Under the pieces are notes generated by a model. The model saw nothing but the letters and a program-made list of their open reading frames with translations, did not search any database and was not told the origin of the DNA. Source: Eledone cirrhosa (lineage: Eukaryota). Taken from it: a stretch of 64,000 nucleotides of DNA. Below are positions 11,135-64,000 of this stretch, piece by piece (position 1 is the stretch's first letter; the number at the start of each line of letters is the position of its first letter). The translations under genes were made by a program, and so were the position numbers. The stretch spans positions 391,158,001 through 391,222,000 of the forward strand of contig OZ024741.1 in NCBI GenBank assembly GCA_964016885.1. The letters are read 5' to 3'.

Positions 11135-14100
11135 TCCTTGAATCTCAGTCATTGATGTTGGTTAACTGGAAAGTCCGTTGGATTGAATATCAAGCCACTA
11201 CCTGCAGCCTCAGATATTCAGGACGTATCGGAGGGTTCTTGCTGTTCCAAGCAAGCATGCCTTTTGAAGCGTTCCAAAAAGCGTGAAGGGGCCGATTTTC
11301 TTTAACCATCCCTGGAAACCTTTGGAGATAGTCCCCAGTGCGCCTATGACAATCGGGATCACTTTGACTTCATGGCAGTTCCAAATCCTTTTCACCTCCC
11401 ACTTTAGGTCCTGGTATCGGTTAATTTTCTCCCTCTCCTTCTCTTGCACTCTCGTGTCGAACGGGCAGGCCACATCCACAATCAGGCACGATCTTTTTTC
11501 TTTGTCCACAACCACCAGGTCAGGTCTATTGTGTTCCAGTTTTTTGTCCGTCTGTATCCTAAAATCCCACAGCACCTTCACCTGACTGTTCTCCATCACC
11601 GCCTCTGGCCTATGCTCATACCATTTCTCAGAATGTGGTAGATTGTTTACTTTGCACAGGTGCCAGTGGATCACCCTGCCCATCACATCGTGTCTCCAGC
11701 CCTTATAGTGGGTCTGGGCTAGGTGTTTACACTCGGACACAATGTGAGCCACAGTCTCCTCTCTCTCTCCACAGATCCTGCACAGTGGGCTAGCCTCCTC
11801 CTTGTAGATATGGTGCTTCAACCACTTCGTTTTGAGGGCCTGCTCCTGCGCAGCCATTAGCATTCCTTCTGTAGCCTTTTTGAGGTCTCCTCTTCTCAAC
11901 CAGTTCCATGTCTGTGGATCTCTAAATTCAGTTTTCTCAAAGAAGGTACTATGAAGGGATTTTCCCTTAAGGCTGCTCTTCCTCCTTGATGTTATTTCCT
12001 CCTTGGACATCCCCTGGCCTATTGTCCCCTCCTTCAGTACAGTTCTGAGCATTGGCTCCTTACTATCAGTCACGTATTTGTGTAGGTTGTTTTTCTCCAT
12101 CTGAACACACTCCTCTATGCTGATAAGACCTCTTCCACCCTCAGATCTCCTTAAGTAGAGTCTATCGACATCACTCCTCTTGTGGAACATGTTGTAGATA
12201 GTCAATAGCTTCCTAGTCTTCCTATCCATTTCTTTTTGTTCAGCAACATTCCATCTCAGAATTCCCGCACTGTACCTAATAATAGACACAGCTCGGGAAT
12301 TTACTGCGCTTATGGCATTTCTGCTGTTCAGATGTGACTTCAATACGCTCCTTACTCTCCGAATGTATTCAGCTCTTAACAATTCCTTCATTTTTTTGTT
12401 CTTTATGCCATCAGCCTCCAGAACGCCCAAATACTTGTATCCTTCCTCAGAGTCAATTTCCTTTATCATCTCACCTGTTGGTATCTGGATCCCGTTACTT
12501 CTGCTCAACCTACCCCTCTTCATCACAATGACTCCACATTTACCAATACCAAACTGCATACATATATCACTGCTGAAAATACGGACAGTGTCAACAAGCA
12601 CATCCAACTCCTTCTCACTTTTCCCGAAGAACTTAAGATCGTCCATGAAGAGGAGGTGATTGATGGTAAGCTCTCCCCTTCCCAACTTGTATCCTGCTCT
12701 CACTTTTCGCAGCATAATGGTCAAGGGCATCAGGGCAAGGACAAACAACAGAGGGGACAGGCTATCTCCCTGGAAGATACCTCTCTTGATCTTCACGCTT
12801 CCCAAGGATACTCCAGTTGATGTCAACTCTGTCTCCCAGGACCCCATACTCCTGCCCAGCAACTGTCTGATGTTATCTGCCACCCTGAAGATCTCCAGGC
12901 TTTTGGTGATCCAGGAATGAGGCACCATGTCAAATGCCTTTCTGTAGTCTATCCATCCCATGGCAAGATCAGTGTGTCTCCTCCTGCAATTCCCCATTAC
13001 CATCTTATCAATAAGCAACTGGTCCTTTGTACCACGTGACTTCTTTCGGCATCCTTTCTGTTCGTCCGGTAACAAGTTGTTTGTGTGGAGGTGATGGCAG
13101 ATTTCCTCAGACACAATGCTCGTCAACAGTTTCCACATTACGGGCAGACATGTGATAGGTCTATAGTTGGTAACATCATTACCCTTGATTCGGTCTTTCA
13201 TTATCAGAACTGTGGTACCTTTTGTCAACCACTCTGGCACCTCACCCGACACCAAGCAGTCATTGAACATGGCCGTCAGCTTCGGGTGGAGGGATGTTAA
13301 ATGTTTAATCCAATACCCCTGCACACCATCTGGGCCTGGTGATTTCCAGTTGGTTAGTTTTTTGGCTTGCCCCTTAAGAGTTTCAACTGTGATACTCAAA
13401 TCAGTCTGTTGTTGTGCCTGCTCACCGATCTCCCTCTGTACTGTCTCAATCCACCCTGCCTGGGCATTGTGTCTAACATCCTGCTCCCATATTCCTCTCC
13501 AGAATGTTTTAGCTTGTTCCGCCCCAGGGATCAAGTCGTTGCCTCTTTCTTTCCCCTCAAGCTGTCCAAACAGCATCTTCTGGTTGTTGTCGAACATGCG
13601 GTTCTGTTTATACTGACTGACTCTGTTCTCGTATCGCCTGATTTTGGCACTCTTTGCTACAATGCGTTGCTTCAATTCCTCTATGATAATATTTAGCTTT
13701 TTACTCCTAGTTTTGTATTTTATTTCCAGTCTATTTTTAGTGCCTATGTTTTTTAGTGTCCCATTCAGTAGTGACTCAAGCTTTCCTATGTCATTTCTCA
13801 TTTCCCCGATTTGCCCACTCAGTCGCTTCTTCCACCACGGCTCTGCTCTTTCTTGTCTGTTGTTTCCTCTCGCTTTTATACCAAGTAGTTTCCTCACCGT
13901 ATTTGCTGTTGCTTTGAGGATATTGTTGCACTGGTGAAGACTCCTCGCCTCAAGGTATGGGATGACTTTGTTTACCTTAGCTGTTGTTTCTTTTAACTTT
14001 TTCCTGTCTACAAATCTTAGGTTCATAGGTCTCCCACTATCATTGTTCAACTCATCTACCACTAAATCTAGGATGTCAACCGAATCTTGTCCTAGCCCGT

Positions 14101-14905
14101 CAGCATTCATCTCCTCAGTGGCCGTATCTCTGTTCCAGGTATTATTTATCTCAGTATTCAGATCATTGTCTGCTTCGGGTGGTTTCTCCGTTCTCAGGAC
14201 CTCCTCACCTTCATTTCCCGCCGGCTCGCTTGTCTGGCATACTACACCCGCCATCTCCAAGCCATTCTCTCTGCTTAGTTCCTCCAGTTCCAGCTCGCTT
14301 ATCCACCCATTAGTTCTTATTACCCGAGCCTGCCCGGCCAATTTTTGTTCATCTAATTTAAATAAACCAATCTCGTTCCAGATGTTATGCATCCGTCTCC
14401 TGTAGCCCCTCTCCTTGGGGTTACTTTTCAGGTAGCATTGCATAACAGTTCTATTCAATTCTTTCGTCCAGTTGGTTCTGGCCCCTTTCCTTCTTCTTCT
14501 TCCTCCAACATCAGCAGTATTTGGTTGACAGTCAGGTTCCTGCTGCTGAGCCAGGGGGCACCTGTTGGGTGAGAGTCTGTCACATGACGTTCTAGTCTCC
14601 ATTTCACCGTTATTCGAACTGTTTATGTTCGATATTTAAACACTCTTATCGAGGATTGGCGAATGTATGTTTACATAGCCATCTGTGGATCCGCCATCCC
14701 ACTTGGCCCTTGTGTGGCATTATCACCACGCTGTATACGAACACACATAAACAAACAAACACACGGGCAGAAAGGGCCCCAAAAATGAATAAGCATAAGT
14801 TTCATTGTAATGTAGTATTCGAATGTCTGACTTAGTTTTTGTTTTTTAAGTTTTACTTTTTCCCCCCTCTTCTCTGTCCGTCCGCCTGCTTCTCTCTTCA
14901 TTCTT
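11135..14905 (-). mobile_element. R4/Dong-clade (RLE-type) non-LTR retrotransposon, apparently full-length; 5' boundary approximate
   Basis: Single long ORF; 3'UTR ends ...GACTGAGATTCAAGG followed by (AAT)n on the element strand. Dong elements are known to target TAA repeats. Confidence 0.9.
11210..14602 (-). CDS. Intact 1130-aa R4/Dong polyprotein: N-terminal DNA-binding region, RT, CCHC zinc knuckle, restriction-like endonuclease
   Basis: [68 protein letters not shown]-(x)-DVACP...KINRY; no stops. Confidence 0.95.
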   Translation of the reverse strand: METRTSCDRLSPNRCPLAQQQEPDCQPNTADVGGRRRRKGARTNWTKELNRTVMQCYLKSNPKERGYRRRMHNIWNEIGLFKLDEQKLAGQARVIRTNGWISELELEELSRENGLEMAGVVCQTSEPAGNEGEEVLRTEKPPEADNDLNTEINNTWNRDTATEEMNADGLGQDSVDILDLVVDELNNDSGRPMNLRFVDRKKLKETTAKVNKVIPYLEARSLHQCNNILKATANTVRKLLGIKARGNNRQERAEPWWKKRLSGQIGEMRNDIGKLESLLNGTLKNIGTKNRLEIKYKTRSKKLNIIIEELKQRIVAKSAKIRRYENRVSQYKQNRMFDNNQKMLFGQLEGKERGNDLIPGAEQAKTFWRGIWEQDVRHNAQAGWIETVQREIGEQAQQQTDLSITVETLKGQAKKLTNWKSPGPDGVQGYWIKHLTSLHPKLTAMFNDCLVSGEVPEWLTKGTTVLIMKDRIKGNDVTNYRPITCLPVMWKLLTSIVSEEICHHLHTNNLLPDEQKGCRKKSRGTKDQLLIDKMVMGNCRRRHTDLAMGWIDYRKAFDMVPHSWITKSLEIFRVADNIRQLLGRSMGSWETELTSTGVSLGSVKIKRGIFQGDSLSPLLFVLALMPLTIMLRKVRAGYKLGRGELTINHLLFMDDLKFFGKSEKELDVLVDTVRIFSSDICMQFGIGKCGVIVMKRGRLSRSNGIQIPTGEMIKEIDSEEGYKYLGVLEADGIKNKKMKELLRAEYIRRVRSVLKSHLNSRNAISAVNSRAVSIIRYSAGILRWNVAEQKEMDRKTRKLLTIYNMFHKRSDVDRLYLRRSEGGRGLISIEECVQMEKNNLHKYVTDSKEPMLRTVLKEGTIGQGMSKEEITSRRKSSLKGKSLHSTFFEKTEFRDPQTWNWLRRGDLKKATEGMLMAAQEQALKTKWLKHHIYKEEASPLCRICGEREETVAHIVSECKHLAQTHYKGWRHDVMGRVIHWHLCKVNNLPHSEKWYEHRPEAVMENSQVKVLWDFRIQTDKKLEHNRPDLVVVDKEKRSCLIVDVACPFDTRVQEKEREKINRYQDLKWEVKRIWNCHEVKVIPIVIGALGTISKGFQGWLKKIGPFTLFGTLQKACLLGTARTLRYVLNI

Positions 14906-56929: not shown

Positions 56930-59085
56930 ATCAACAAAACTGCGATGTCGGAGGTGCGACAACTTAGGAGGAATATGACTACAGTCTGGCTGGACTACAA
57001 GAAAGCTTTAGATTCTGTTCCCCACTCTTGGATGATAGAGGCCCTCCAACTTGCTAAAGTCCCAGACATAATTATCAGAGCCATAGAGAGGCTGTCTTCT
57101 TCTTAGGCTACTATCCTAAGATTAAAGACAGAGAAGGAGGACTCTATTTTCACTGATAAAATAAAATATCGCAGGGGTATATTTCAAGGGGACAGTCTCT
57201 CTGTGATATTATTCATCTTGTAATTAAACCGCTTGTCCTTTCGGCTCAAGAAATGTGAGGGATACATCATTGGCTCACAGAAGGACAGAAATACGAACCT
57301 AACCCATAATTTCTTTGTGGACTATCTGAAGCTCTCTCTATGCCAGGAACATGGATGGGTTGAAGAAAAATCTTGACCTGGTTACAATGTTCTCAAAGGA
57401 TATAGGAATGGAGTTTGGTCAAGATAAATGCTCATACATGACTGTAAAGCGGGGAAAAACAACGACCCAATCTAGCAACATTGTCATCAATGGTCTAACT
57501 GTTTCACCGATATCTGATGACGACTGCTACAGATACCTGGGGATAGATGAGAACATATCCTACAATGGTATCTGTAATAAGGAACGCGTAACCAGGGAAT
57601 ACTACACCCGATTAAGAAAGATTTGGTCATCAGAACTCTCTGCGCAAAACAAAACAGTGGCTCACAATGTGTTTGCTGTGCCTGTCCCGACACCAACGTT
57701 TGGAATACTCAATTGGACAATAGACGAAATCCGAGCAGTTGATGTTGGAACTCGAAAAATACTAAACACCGGAAACCTCGACATCAACAGTGACATAGAC
57801 CGCCTTTACTTGAAACATAAGCAGGGAGGCAGAGGCCTAACATCAGCCCAGACAGCATTTGAATGTCGCATCATATCCCTCCGACAACATCTACGAACCT
57901 CGAAGCGTAGGAGCCCGTCTCTCGAGCAAGTCTATCTGCATGAAACAGATATGATCATGAGAGTTGGGAAGGAACTCCTCGAGAGATATTTCCTGTGTGA
58001 TAATCAAAAACTCACACCCAGGGATGTCGCTCAGCAGTATCGCAGTGAATCCATGGATGAAAAACTGCATTGCTTATCAGCAAAAAATCATGCATCGATA
58101 TGTTGCCAGGAAGCTCCAGAGTGAGAGTAATATAGATAGGGAAAGTAGTCTATCTTGGACCAACAACCGCTATATTGGCTCCCACTTTGAAGGATACGCT
58201 TTTGAAATCCAAGAACAGGAGATTAACACGAAATACCTGATTCACAAAAGAGATAGGGATGCAGGCAAAACACCTAGATGTGATAACAAGTGCAGACTCT
58301 GCAGAACTAACATCAAGGATATCACCCATGTCATCAGCAGCTGTCAAAAGATGTCATCGCGGTACTATCTACCTATGAGGCATGATGTAGTGGCCAAAAC
58401 ACTGTACGATGCAGTTCGTAAAAAAGATAGCCCCGATAATAAACACATTAAAAGCTACAACAATGTGGAAGACATCCATGTACATAATATGAAAGAGTAC
58501 TGGTGGAATGTTCCAGTAAAGACCCCAATAAAATGCAGGCATAACAGACCAGATATTATGATATGGGACAGGGAGAAGAAAGCATGCACAGTAGTGGAAA
58601 TTAGCTTCCCAGCAGATGCCAATATAATATCAAAGATTAGCGAAAAGGAGAATATTTATGCAGAACTGATGAGAAATCTGCAGATACTCCACCCTGATTA
58701 CACCTTCAGATTTATGCCTGTGATTATTGGGGCACTGGGATATGTTAGTAACTGCCTCAATACAAATCTTGAGAAGCTAGGCTTCACAGGAACAGAAAGA
58801 ACACAACAAGTTAGGGAGTTACAAGTACAATCCATTAATGGAACAGTAAAAATATGTAAAACATTCCACAAATTTTGCATATAATAACAGCATATACACA
58901 TGCACACATACAACTCAAAACATACAGATCCACACATACAATAACATCCATATCTACACATGCATGCATGCATACATAATATACATAGTTGATGTGTAAA
59001 TTCCAATGAGAGAGTCTTGTGTCTATGTTAGAAACCGACTCTCTCTCTATTGGTAAAACTTTGTGAAATTATAAAACCAGAAGAA
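56930..59085 (+). mobile_element. Third R4-like RLE family, 5'-truncated and decayed, inserted in (CATA)n
   Basis: [27 protein letters not shown]...DITHVISSC, RHD, RPD..EIS.P..K..IY; flanked by (CATA)n at 56847-56928 and 59086-59178. Confidence 0.9.
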
Positions 59086-62707: not shown

Positions 62708-62828
62708 GTAATAACAACAATACTACTACTACTACTACTAATAATAATAATAATAAAAAGCCCCAGCACCACCACCGACATAGCCAACAACAATAACAGG
62801 CAACTTCAGCAAAAAGTATATTATATTA

Positions 62829-62884
62829 TTGTAATGCACTGGGTAATTGCTGGCCTTGTGCCTGGAGTGGAGACAATTATTAAT
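62829..62884 (+). mobile_element. SINE 3'-end fragment
   Basis: GTAATGCACTGGGTAATTGCTGGCCTTGTGCC..GAGACAATTATT matches the SINE tail. Confidence 0.75.
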
Positions 62885-62967
62885 AATTTCATTCTTAAGC
62901 CACGCAATGCTCACATTAAGGAACCACTCATGATAATAGCAATTTAAAAAAACAACAAAAAAGAAAA

Positions 62968-64000
62968 CCCCGTGACCAAGAAATACCCGGATGGCGGCCG
63001 GCGGGGAATAGCCGTGTCTCTAGGGGAGAACGACCCCTCTAGTCTTGGTTGACACTCGTTCTAGAAGTGGTAACACGAAATGATTACCCCTTGACGGATA
63101 AGGATAAAACACGACAAAATAAAGTAAATGTCTAATGATAAAATCTCATACCGGATCGGCCGTCACCCGGGTAAAAAAGGGCCGCGTCCCTCAGAGAGGA
63201 ACCAGACTGGGGTCGAAAAATCAGCTAATGGTTCAAACCTTTCCATCACTTCGGAGCTGGAGACCTCCCATAACCGGAATACTCCTACTGTTGGCCCTCC
63301 ATGCTCACCACCAAGAAATCCAAAGAAAAAGAGAGAAAAATGGTCAAGGGAAGATAATAAAGAAGTCCTTGAGGCTTTCTACACTGCCATGTACTACCCA
63401 TCAAATACATCGAATACAGAACAGACATATATCAACTGTAAAAAGAAACATCCCGAAAACAGAGGCTATATTGACAGTAACAAACTAGCCAATATACGAA
63501 GAAATATTGTAAAAAAAAGTTACTAACTGATATAGAAATTGATTAGATCAAGCTATTAGCACAAAGTCAGCGAAGGGAAAATGAAACATGTGTCAGTGAA
63601 AACGAGGTAAATTGTAACACTTCGAATCCCAGGGTTGGGGCGGAATCACTGACAACAGAACAAATTAAAGAAAGGATCGAAAAAGTGGAGGGAGTGCATG
63701 CTCAAGATGAAACTCCAAATGAAAACAATGAGATCGTAAATGATAAAGAAATGAATGAGAATGAACTTGCCAACTTGAAGGATGAAATTATGATCGAATG
63801 GATGAAAATGAAAGAATCTGACATGGGGGAACGAGACACCCTCCCTAAGATCCAGAACTCCAAACAGAACCAAAAGATAATACACAAGACTAACATAATT
63901 CTCAAAAACATTATCATCACAAACAAACTAAACATTACTGATTTAAATCATCTCTATTATGCATCGGATAAAGTCACCACTCACTTATGTGGAGTGAAGA
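62968..64000 (+). mobile_element. 5' end of an R4/Dong-type element: structured 5'UTR and start of ORF at 63128 (frameshift at ~63520); runs off the window
   Basis: REKWSREDNKEV.EAFY...DSNKLANIRR.I parallels RTNWTKELNRTVMQCY...DEQKLAGQARVI of the intact element. Confidence 0.8.

What the first reader, a model, noticed from the sequence alone, without database searches (positions are those of the whole stretch)
62968..63127. Multi-pseudoknot RNA fold directly upstream of an R4/Dong ORF (candidate new ribozyme or IRES)
Seen: dense crossing complementarity within 160 nt. Pairings are CCCCG(62968-72)/CGGGG(63002-06) and GACCAAGA(62974-81)/TCTTGGTT(63043-50). A hairpin CCGG-ATGGCGG-CCGG has a loop that can pair with GCCGT(63011-15). 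A hairpin CTAGGGG/CCCCTCTAG has a 7-nt loop AGAACGA(63027-33) perfectly complementary to TCGTTCT(63056-62). Also GTGTC/GACAC, then hairpins GGTAA..TTACC and CCTT..AAGG, then TAA-ATG. Established: many RLE elements (R2, some R4) start with HDV-like ribozymes. I could not fit this one to the HDV, hammerhead or twister consensus. Inference: an unclassified structured RNA for 5' processing or cap-independent translation.
Basis: partly seen in the sequence, partly recalled or inferred. Interest (0 to 1): 0.75.

Follow-up and report, generated by a model that had tools for sequence, protein, structure and literature searches.

The report
Conserved pseudoknot chain in LINE leaders
Just before the start codon of a jumping gene sits a chain of RNA knots whose base pairs are kept by compensating changes in distantly related jumping genes; it likely helps ribosomes start on these RNAs, and its first knot may act as a barrier that sets or protects the RNA's front end in other families, though not in this one.

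Summary
The fold is real, but not for the reason given. The window sequence is no more self-complementary than its shuffles; the support is covariation. Homologues precede the ORF of R4/Dong-type elements with 43-46% RT identity and of an APE-type LINE. Modules: M1 (62968-63018, double pseudoknot), M2 (63023-63064, pseudoknot with inner hairpin; 96% of cells paired, 9 of 14 pairs change on both sides), M3/M4 (63064-63127, ending at the AUG). M2 is the known 'RTE 5'-UTR / Ceph-domain' sequence (Kojima 2018), not described there as a structure. Two reader pairings are not conserved; a third is undecided. It is not a 5'-processing ribozyme in this family: it lies about 990 nt inside a 1,148-nt leader, and 0 of 80 copies begin at it. 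No Rfam, HDV, hammerhead or twister fit. Best reading (0.45): a ribosome-engaging leader element, since M3 lies 64-79 nt before the AUG in R4 families. Boldest reading: M1 has the strand order of flavivirus xrRNAs and coincides with 5' ends in other families. Nothing was tested experimentally.

The parts
62755..63127 (+). 3' part of the 5' UTR of family A (TAA-targeting R4/Dong-type LINE); this copy is 5'-truncated and joined to TAA repeats; the full leader is 1,148 nt with 11 upstream AUGs
62968..63018 (+). Module M1, double pseudoknot. a: 62968-72/63002-06. b: 62974-78/63009-13 (only 3 of 5 pairs here, 5 of 5 in L075 and family R). c: 62986-89/62998-63001 in majority copies, 8-nt loop. k: loop 62993-96 with 63015-18
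63023..63064 (+). Module M2, pseudoknot with inner hairpin. S1: 63023-26/63034-37. S2: 63027-33/63056-62. h: 63042-44/63051-53. Followed by invariant AG. [quoted passage not shown]
63029..63060 (+). S2 pair 63029/63060 switches A-U to G-C in a subfamily: 817 A-U, 143 G-C, 18 G-U, 11 A-C exact matches in this genome (one lineage event)
63064..63088 (+). Module M3. An H-type pseudoknot in relatives; here stem 1 has decayed and the loop stem 63069-73/63084-88 is kept with a G-C to A-U change
63089..63127 (+). Module M4: small hairpin 63089-92/63100-03 and A-rich spacer to the AUG; relatives add a further small hairpin ending in GAGUG just before the AUG (seen by eye, not tested for covariation)
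62991..63011 (+). 6-codon upstream ORF starting in the M1 loop; its AUG is absent from L075, L076, L093 and family R (L081 has an AUG at another place in the loop), so it is probably incidental
63128..64000 (+). Start of the family A ORF (RT, CCHC and restriction-like endonuclease further on, beyond the window); frameshifted in this copy after 132 codons

Best explanation
This is a conserved, modular chain of RNA pseudoknots at the end of a LINE leader, and it likely works by engaging the host ribosome so that translation starts at the AUG just downstream despite a long leader with many upstream AUGs. Shown: the location, the helices kept by compensatory changes, the sharing of the chain between endonuclease-unrelated LINEs (R4/RLE and APE-type), the narrow M3-to-AUG spacing, and that family A's RNA template begins about 990 nt upstream, so the chain does not make its 5' end. 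Inferred: that the partner is a host factor and not the element's own protein; that M2-M4 recruit or position the 40S subunit (probably followed by a short scan, not exact placement); that M1 is a separate 5'-end module that is partly decayed here because family A has a promoter-like leader of its own; and that SINEs kept M2 to dock on ribosomes or to stabilise their RNA.
For: Structure: M2 96% paired, 9 of 14 pairs with two-sided change, 0 of 500 shuffles as high, slid controls 35-52%. M1+h+M3 on an unedited alignment: 7 of 27 pairs two-sided, 1 of 500 shuffles. Subfamily pair switch 817/143/18/11. G-U pairs fix the sense strand. Carriers share 43-63% RT identity, and the chain also precedes an APE-like ORF (family R, weak E = 9e-5). 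By eye, S2 keeps 7 of 7 pairs in 20 of 21 RTE, Ingi and SINE rows of the Kojima supplement. Function: M3 start to AUG is 68-76 nt in 11 of 14 rows where the script found the AUG; by hand 79 in L078, 70 in L128 and 64 in A, whatever lies upstream. The leader has 1,148 nt and 11 upstream AUGs. M3/M4 stay beside the AUG when M1 and M2 are missing (L078, family B relatives). HDV-like folds in R2 and L1Tc are reported to support initiation (PMC6765202, passages).
Against: No experiment, and no RNA data. 18 of 25 metagenome R4-like contigs with a visible leader lack M3, and 12 have none of the modules. In family B the AUG moved 33 nt downstream (AUG to AUA plus a new AUG in 14 of 33 copies scored), which argues against exact placement. 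In family R two mini-ORFs lie between M3 and the long ORF (read). In L089 the called AUG is about 160 nt after M3, and in RTE L184 M2 is over 300 nt from the ORF. M2 is kept in non-coding SINEs, which fits a protein-binding or stability role as well. M3 stem 2 shows no two-sided change among 14 rows. No known IRES motif is shared. The covariation sets are small (6-10 rows), partly related, and some registers were set by hand.
Confidence: 0.45

Rival explanations
1. The knots, M1 above all, are mechanical blocks to 5'-3' exoribonucleases (xrRNA-like): they would trim read-through transcripts to a defined 5' end and protect the template RNA.
For: M1 strand order (a, b, optional hairpin, c with a loop pseudoknot, a', b', k') equals the class 1 xrRNA order Pk1, P1, P2, P3, Pk2 (order recalled; parts confirmed in PMC7527734 passages). 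The a pair next to c is G-C in all 6 rows, like the second Pk1 pair. An M1-like fold with a variable P2 starts 6 of 6 'group 2' R4 elements right after the TAA repeats. In family R, where b is intact, 7 of 35 copies join at -6..+2 of M1, against 0 of 80 in family A, where b is decayed (Fisher p = 1.5e-4; local Poisson p = 0.008). M2 occurs in tandem (L128, L193). A 5' fold raises R2 template efficiency without cleavage (PMC11331408, passages).
Against: The defining details are not met: a is 4-5 bp (Pk1 is 2-3), there is no covarying base triple, 3 or more nt separate P2 and P3, and the ring is about 19 nt by hand count against 15-16. No Rfam hit. Group 2 homology to group 1 is by eye; the group 1 model gives only E = 0.41-6.7 at the right place in 3 of 6 loci. 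The family R leader is TA-rich just upstream of M1, which favours junctions there. Family A shows no such ends.
Confidence: 0.25
2. M1 is a new self-cleaving ribozyme that cuts at its 5' edge; it would be active in group 2 and family R and silent in family A.
For: In group 2 it fills the slot that a proven self-cleaving HDV-like ribozyme fills in B. mori Dong (PMC3774820, passages). Its core is nearly invariant (42 invariant columns of 83) among elements with 52-85% RT identity. 5' junctions cluster at its edge in family R.
Against: 0 of 80 family A copies start there. Full leaders persist upstream in A, R, L075, L076 and L093. There is no conserved cytosine in the linkers and no HDV, hammerhead, twister or pistol motif common to the homologues. 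Few positions are invariant once all groups are compared.
Confidence: 0.13
3. The chain is a binding site for the element's own RT protein, like the R2 5' pseudoknot, used for RNP assembly or second-strand steps.
For: The R2 protein binds a 5' pseudoknot (PMC6765202, passages). Bipartite SINEs keep this 5'-UTR piece together with the 3' tail.
Against: The same modules serve R4 (RLE), RTE, Ingi and family R proteins with unrelated N-termini and endonucleases. Many R4 elements lack them.
Confidence: 0.12
4. The conservation reflects a DNA element (promoter or transcription-factor site) or chance, with no RNA fold.
For: Single-sequence folding is not above chance. Kojima 2018 speculated on binding of a transcriptional regulator.
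Against: Two-sided changes and G-U pairs in crossing helices and the subfamily pair switch are not expected of a DNA site.
Confidence: 0.05

Closest known systems
[quoted passage not shown]
   Same: M2 is this sequence family: a model built from M2 scores RTE leaders and SINE-type copies at E <= 1e-9 (partly by construction); the paper reports it in RTE, Ingi-3_AC, R4-1_ADi and SINEs, in the middle of the UTR.
   Different: In the passages, Discussion and supplement part read, it is treated as sequence only; 'pseudoknot' occurs 0 times in the paper. Here it is a covarying pseudoknot, flanked by M1 and M3/M4, close to the AUG.
HDV-like ribozymes of R2, R4, Dong, RTE and L1Tc
   Same: Multi-pseudoknot RNA in the 5' UTR of a non-LTR element; M1 sits in the same 5'-terminal slot in group 2.
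   Different: Different strand order, no L3 CC/GG P1.1, no catalytic C linker, no P4; in family A it is about 990 nt from the 5' end and copies do not start at it.
Class 1 flavivirus xrRNA (subclasses 1a and 1b)
   Same: Same order of strands and pseudoknots as M1, 4-bp P3, G-C pair next to P3', variable P2 in group 2.
   Different: Longer Pk1-like helix, no base triple, P2 absent in group 1, larger ring; found in cellular retrotransposons; resistance untested.
Type 6 (dicistrovirus IGR) IRES
   Same: About 130-190 nt, two or three pseudoknots, upstream of an ORF.
   Different: The last pseudoknot is about 40-60 nt before a normal AUG, not adjacent to the first codon; the pseudoknots are in series, not nested; no L1.1 or conserved CAGCC loop.
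R2 5' protein-binding pseudoknot
   Same: Pseudoknot near the ORF start of an RLE element.
   Different: No shared sequence known to me; these modules cross clades with unrelated proteins.

Membership tests
HDV-like ribozyme | Order P1-P2-P3-(P1.1)-P3'-P1'-P1.1'-P4-J4/2-P2' (recalled) | tested here: not met
   Covarying order in M1 is a-b-c-k-c'-a'-b'-k'; no P4; k' lies after b'
HDV-like ribozyme | CC in L3 pairing GG, and a catalytic C in J4/2 (recalled) | tested here: not met
   The loop carries GG/GA and pairs with pyrimidines; the a'-b' linker has no conserved C; the L3 motif is absent in A, L081, R and group 2
HDV-like ribozyme | Element 5' ends coincide with the first ribozyme base | tested here: not met
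   0 of 80 family A copies; met in 6 of 6 group 2 contigs and 7 of 35 family R copies
HDV-like ribozyme | Self-cleavage | not testable with these tools
   needs an in vitro assay
Hammerhead / twister / pistol | Conserved cores (CUGANGA + GAAA; twister loop; pistol linker; motifs recalled) | tested here: not met
   No motif common to 8 homologues on either strand; no Rfam hit
Class 1 xrRNA | Strand order Pk1, P1, P2, P3, L3 pseudoknot Pk2 | tested here: met
   M1 helices a, b, (hairpin), c, k; P2 present only in group 2
Class 1 xrRNA | Pk1 of 2-3 bp with a G-C second pair | tested here: inconclusive
   G-C next to c' in 6 of 6 rows, but 4-5 bp possible; PMC7527734 notes that longer predicted Pk1 shrank on probing
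Class 1 xrRNA | U.A-U or C.G-C base triple at the base of P3 | tested here: not met
   The base after a is U, A or C while the P3 base pair is C-G or U-A, with no covariation
Class 1 xrRNA | Ring of 15-16 nt | tested here: not met
   About 19 nt by hand count in L075 and in group 2; 15-16 from PMC8374639
Class 1 xrRNA | Blocks Xrn1 at a defined point | not testable with these tools
   only indirect junction clustering
Type 6 IRES | PKI directly before the first codon; L1.1 loops; nested PKIII | tested here: not met
   M3 start is 64-79 nt before an AUG; motifs absent
Type 6 IRES | End-independent initiation | not testable with these tools
   needs reporters and toeprints
RTE 5'-UTR conserved domain (Ceph 3' half) | Sequence similarity to the published domain | tested here: met
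   One gap-poor alignment of A with RTE (L184) and SINE-type (L156, L165) copies, 72% mean column identity; L165 carries the domain's published start nearly letter for letter; supplement rows match by eye
R4/Dong clade LINE (host element) | Single ORF with RT, CCHC and PD..D..K endonuclease; TAA-repeat target | tested here: met
   Dong as an R4-lineage element beside TAA repeats from PMC3774820
R4/Dong clade LINE (host element) | Phylogenetic placement with named R4/Dong proteins | not tested
   no named reference proteins were on hand; the tree holds unnamed relatives only

The most novel reading that the evidence does not exclude
LINEs carry a swappable RNA toolkit that targets host machinery: M1 is a cellular, retrotransposon-borne xrRNA-like fold (or a new ribozyme class) that makes the element's 5' end in place of the HDV ribozyme, and M2-M4 form a new IRES-like element whose M2 knot is the structure behind the Ceph/RTE SINE body, kept by SINEs to dock on ribosomes.
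Probability: 0.25. Interest if true: 0.88.

Novelty: new variant of a known kind. Interest (0 to 1): 0.66.

Why it matters
How LINE RNAs with long leaders or uncapped ends get translated, and why SINEs keep a piece of the RTE 5' UTR, are open questions. This gives that conserved piece a covariation-supported structure with exact pairs to mutate, and adds two undescribed modules. A 2021 review (PMC8374639, first fifth read) still speaks of xrRNAs in cellular RNAs as yet to be found; an Xrn1 block or new ribozyme at LINE 5' ends would be a new route to unit-length template RNA and a usable 5' module for retrotransposon-based gene insertion.

Tried and rejected
Rfam scans of the window end (E <= 10) and of 11 homologous loci (E <= 5): only chance or microsatellite hits. 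Single-sequence folding and helix density: not above shuffles. The 10-mer shared with family B (window 14691-14700): B's relatives show it arose by local rearrangement at a non-homologous place, so it was rejected as homology. Family C leader: no M1-M3. Viral contigs: one RT locus without the fold, 17 hits of a 16-mer of which none passed the M2 descriptor, 0 hits for an M1 pattern. Sequencing runs: no RNA holder listed, so expression and RNA ends were not examined; the contigs laid served only to show variants. My first impression that M1 is the 5' end of family R was wrong: 10 of 35 copies extend 71-388 nt upstream. The group 1 models do not significantly find group 2. In one search the L081 row for k and the L156 row for S2 were mis-registered; k was redone, and the fixed-register S2 count leaves out L081, R and L156 (3 of 10 rows). 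Termination-reinitiation: no long ORF ends at the TAA before the AUG and no UGGGA is shared. Ruminski 2011 could not be read. Literature searches for a prior description listed none; the library lacks most subscription papers, and figures, including Kojima's Fig. 2, were not visible.

Full report
Context. The finding lies directly before the ATG at 63128 of a non-LTR retrotransposon (family A) in a 3.0-Gb animal genome; the first look found 1,613 candidates and the 40 scored copies are 98-100% identical. The ORF continues beyond the window with RT, a CCHC motif and an RPD..D..K endonuclease motif, and ends in TAA repeats, the anatomy of R4/Dong elements (Dong beside TAA repeats: PMC3774820, passages). 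The window copy is 5'-truncated near 62755 and frameshifted after 132 codons. The full leader is 1,148 nt with 11 upstream AUGs, and the fold is its last 160 nt.

Observation. The listed complementarities exist, but they prove little alone: MFE z is +0.24, and a pseudoknot-allowed helix score is lower than in 489 of 500 shuffles. Rfam gives no meaningful hit here or on 11 homologous loci.

Homologues. An RT alignment fetched 79 metagenome loci and 24 loci from genome contigs. Among 25 of them with a visible leader, 4 carry M1, M2 and M3 (L075 and L077, one family; L081, cut inside M1; L093), 1 carries M2 and M3 (L128), 2 carry M3 only, 6 carry a related-looking 5'-terminal fold (group 2) and 12 carry none; L076 holds a further full chain at its end. 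RT identity between A and the full-chain carriers is 43-46%. In the window's genome the whole chain also precedes an APE-like ORF (family R, 35 distinct copies examined), M2 occurs in RTE leaders (L182, L184, L189) and M3/M4 in several other R4 families.

Conserved fold. M1 (62968-63018) has helices a, b, c and a loop pseudoknot k. With one row per family and 20,000 strand swaps: c 31 of 32 cells paired (55 swaps as good), a 24 of 24 (702), b 24 of 30 (1,324; only 3 of 5 in family A), k 21 of 21 (96; A and L081 need a one-base shift set by hand). M2 (63023-63064): on an unedited alignment of 9 sequences, 96% of 126 cells are paired and 9 of 14 pairs change on both sides, 0 of 500 shuffles reach this, and slid controls give 35-52%. 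A structural descriptor for M2 hit 14 places in 1.33 Mb: the window copy (counted twice), leaders of related elements and SINE-type copies, and one hit of unclear context, L196. Within family A the only changes fixed in the subfamily inside M2 are the two sides of one S2 pair: 817 A-U, 143 G-C, 18 G-U, 11 A-C; this is one event, not 143. M3 is an H-type pseudoknot in relatives (stem 1: 54 of 56 cells, one two-sided position; stem 2: 67 of 70, none two-sided); in A stem 1 has decayed and stem 2 shows a G-C to A-U change. These controls ignore relatedness, the sets are small, and R-scape was not available.

GACCAAGA/TCTTGGTT fails (28 of 40, no two-sided change) and loop/GCCGT fails (21 of 30); GTGTC/GACAC is undecided (27 of 30) and competes with k and with the inner hairpin h (30 of 30). 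In the Kojima supplement several AviRTE rows have a UUCG-type loop in h, which fits a free hairpin.

What is known. [quoted passage not shown] No structure is proposed in what I read. By eye, S2 keeps all 7 pairs in 20 of 21 rows that I scored in that part (further near-identical AviRTE rows not scored), with many different sequences. Seven searches listed no description of this fold or of xrRNAs in retrotransposons.

Does it make the 5' end? Not in family A. Of 80 copies taken in genome order from those with an exact M2 match, 42 begin 950-988 nt upstream at one sharp end and none begins within -15..+5 of M1; in the G-C subfamily 1 of 26 does. In group 2 an M1-like fold (98% paired, variable extra hairpin) starts all 6 elements right after the TAA repeats, the slot of the self-cleaving HDV-like ribozyme of Dong. 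In family R, with b intact, 7 of 35 copies join at -6..+2, several through an antisense copy of the element's own downstream sequence; p = 1.5e-4 against family A, and 0.008 against the local density. A TA-rich tract just upstream weakens this. Group 2 homology rests on a shared core seen by eye; the group 1 model gives only E = 0.41-6.7 there.

Mechanism. The M3 start lies 68-76 nt before the AUG in 11 of 14 rows scored by script, and 79, 70 and 64 nt in L078, L128 and A by hand, whether the element starts with TAA repeats, a SINE-like head or a 1-kb leader. The chain is shared by elements with unrelated proteins, which points to a host partner. I therefore favour ribosome engagement by M2-M4 (0.45), with a short scan, because family B moved its AUG by 33 nt. 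Against this stand the many R4 elements without the modules, L089 and L184 where the ORF starts further away, and the non-coding SINEs that keep M2. M1 has the strand order of class 1 xrRNAs and a G-C pair next to P3', but it fails the triple, Pk1-length and ring-size features (PMC7527734 passages, PMC8374639 first fifth); it may work like an xrRNA (0.25) but is not a member. A new ribozyme (0.13) and an RT-binding site (0.12) remain open. HDV, hammerhead, twister, pistol and type 6 IRES membership tests fail (PMC13273307, passages).

Other papers: PMC6765202, PMC11331408 and PMC12397905 were seen as passages; PMC8501958 and PMC13708176 as search listings only; Ruminski 2011 was not held and is known to me only through citing papers. 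Two earlier AI notes on this genome, seen only, reach a similar reading for RTE leaders; they are not independent support.

Verdict. A real, covariation-supported, modular RNA structure. One module was known as sequence; the fold and the other modules appear undescribed. Function is inferred. Interest 0.66.

Noticed in passing
L079, L087, L092, L094, L096, L105 (first 50-75 nt after the TAA repeats): Group 2 R4 elements begin with a near-invariant double-pseudoknot core with a variable hairpin, followed by an M2-like fold of different sequence; the best candidate for a cleavage or Xrn1 test.
   Followed up: partly
window 11210-14602 (minus), family B: Intact 1,130-aa R4 ORF; 40 of 40 scored copies are 100% identical over 301 nt among 1,435 candidates: very young, possibly active. 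Its ancestral AUG became AUA and a new AUG arose 11 codons later.
   Followed up: partly
L033 4303-4900 and L036-L047 leaders: Families A and B (48% RT identity) share the same 5'-terminal leader module, suggesting promoter swapping between R4 families.
   Followed up: partly
L080, L127, L134, L161 leaders: R4-like elements whose 5' UTR begins with a tRNA- or SINE-like head (B-box present) and lacks M1-M3: possible pol III-driven LINEs.
   Followed up: no
family R copies L379, L380, L393, L399, L401, L413, L414, L419: 5' junctions joined to an antisense copy of the element's own downstream sequence (snap-back-like), several at the M1 edge.
   Followed up: partly
L128 14-75: Another 5'-terminal fold with an M1-like strand order but unrelated sequence, followed by an RTE-type leader, on an R4 ORF.
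   Followed up: no
window 56930-58884; L055, L064, L069, L073: Family C, a CATA-repeat-associated R4-like element with a leader of about 210 nt holding a possible small hairpin pseudoknot.
   Followed up: partly
L033; G000 C2 353.61-353.64 Mb: Head-to-tail tandem arrays of family A with a period of about 4.9-5.0 kb.
   Followed up: no
window 63150-63192; P0007, P0016, P0029 and others: A GC-rich stretch early in the ORF encodes a PGRH-like motif seen at the N-termini of many relatives; it may be a conserved RNA structure inside the ORF.
   Followed up: no
L154-L177: Contigs filed under bacterial genomes or MAGs encode animal-type R4 RTs, some with TAA repeats or SINE pieces: probably eukaryotic contamination of those assemblies.
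   Followed up: no
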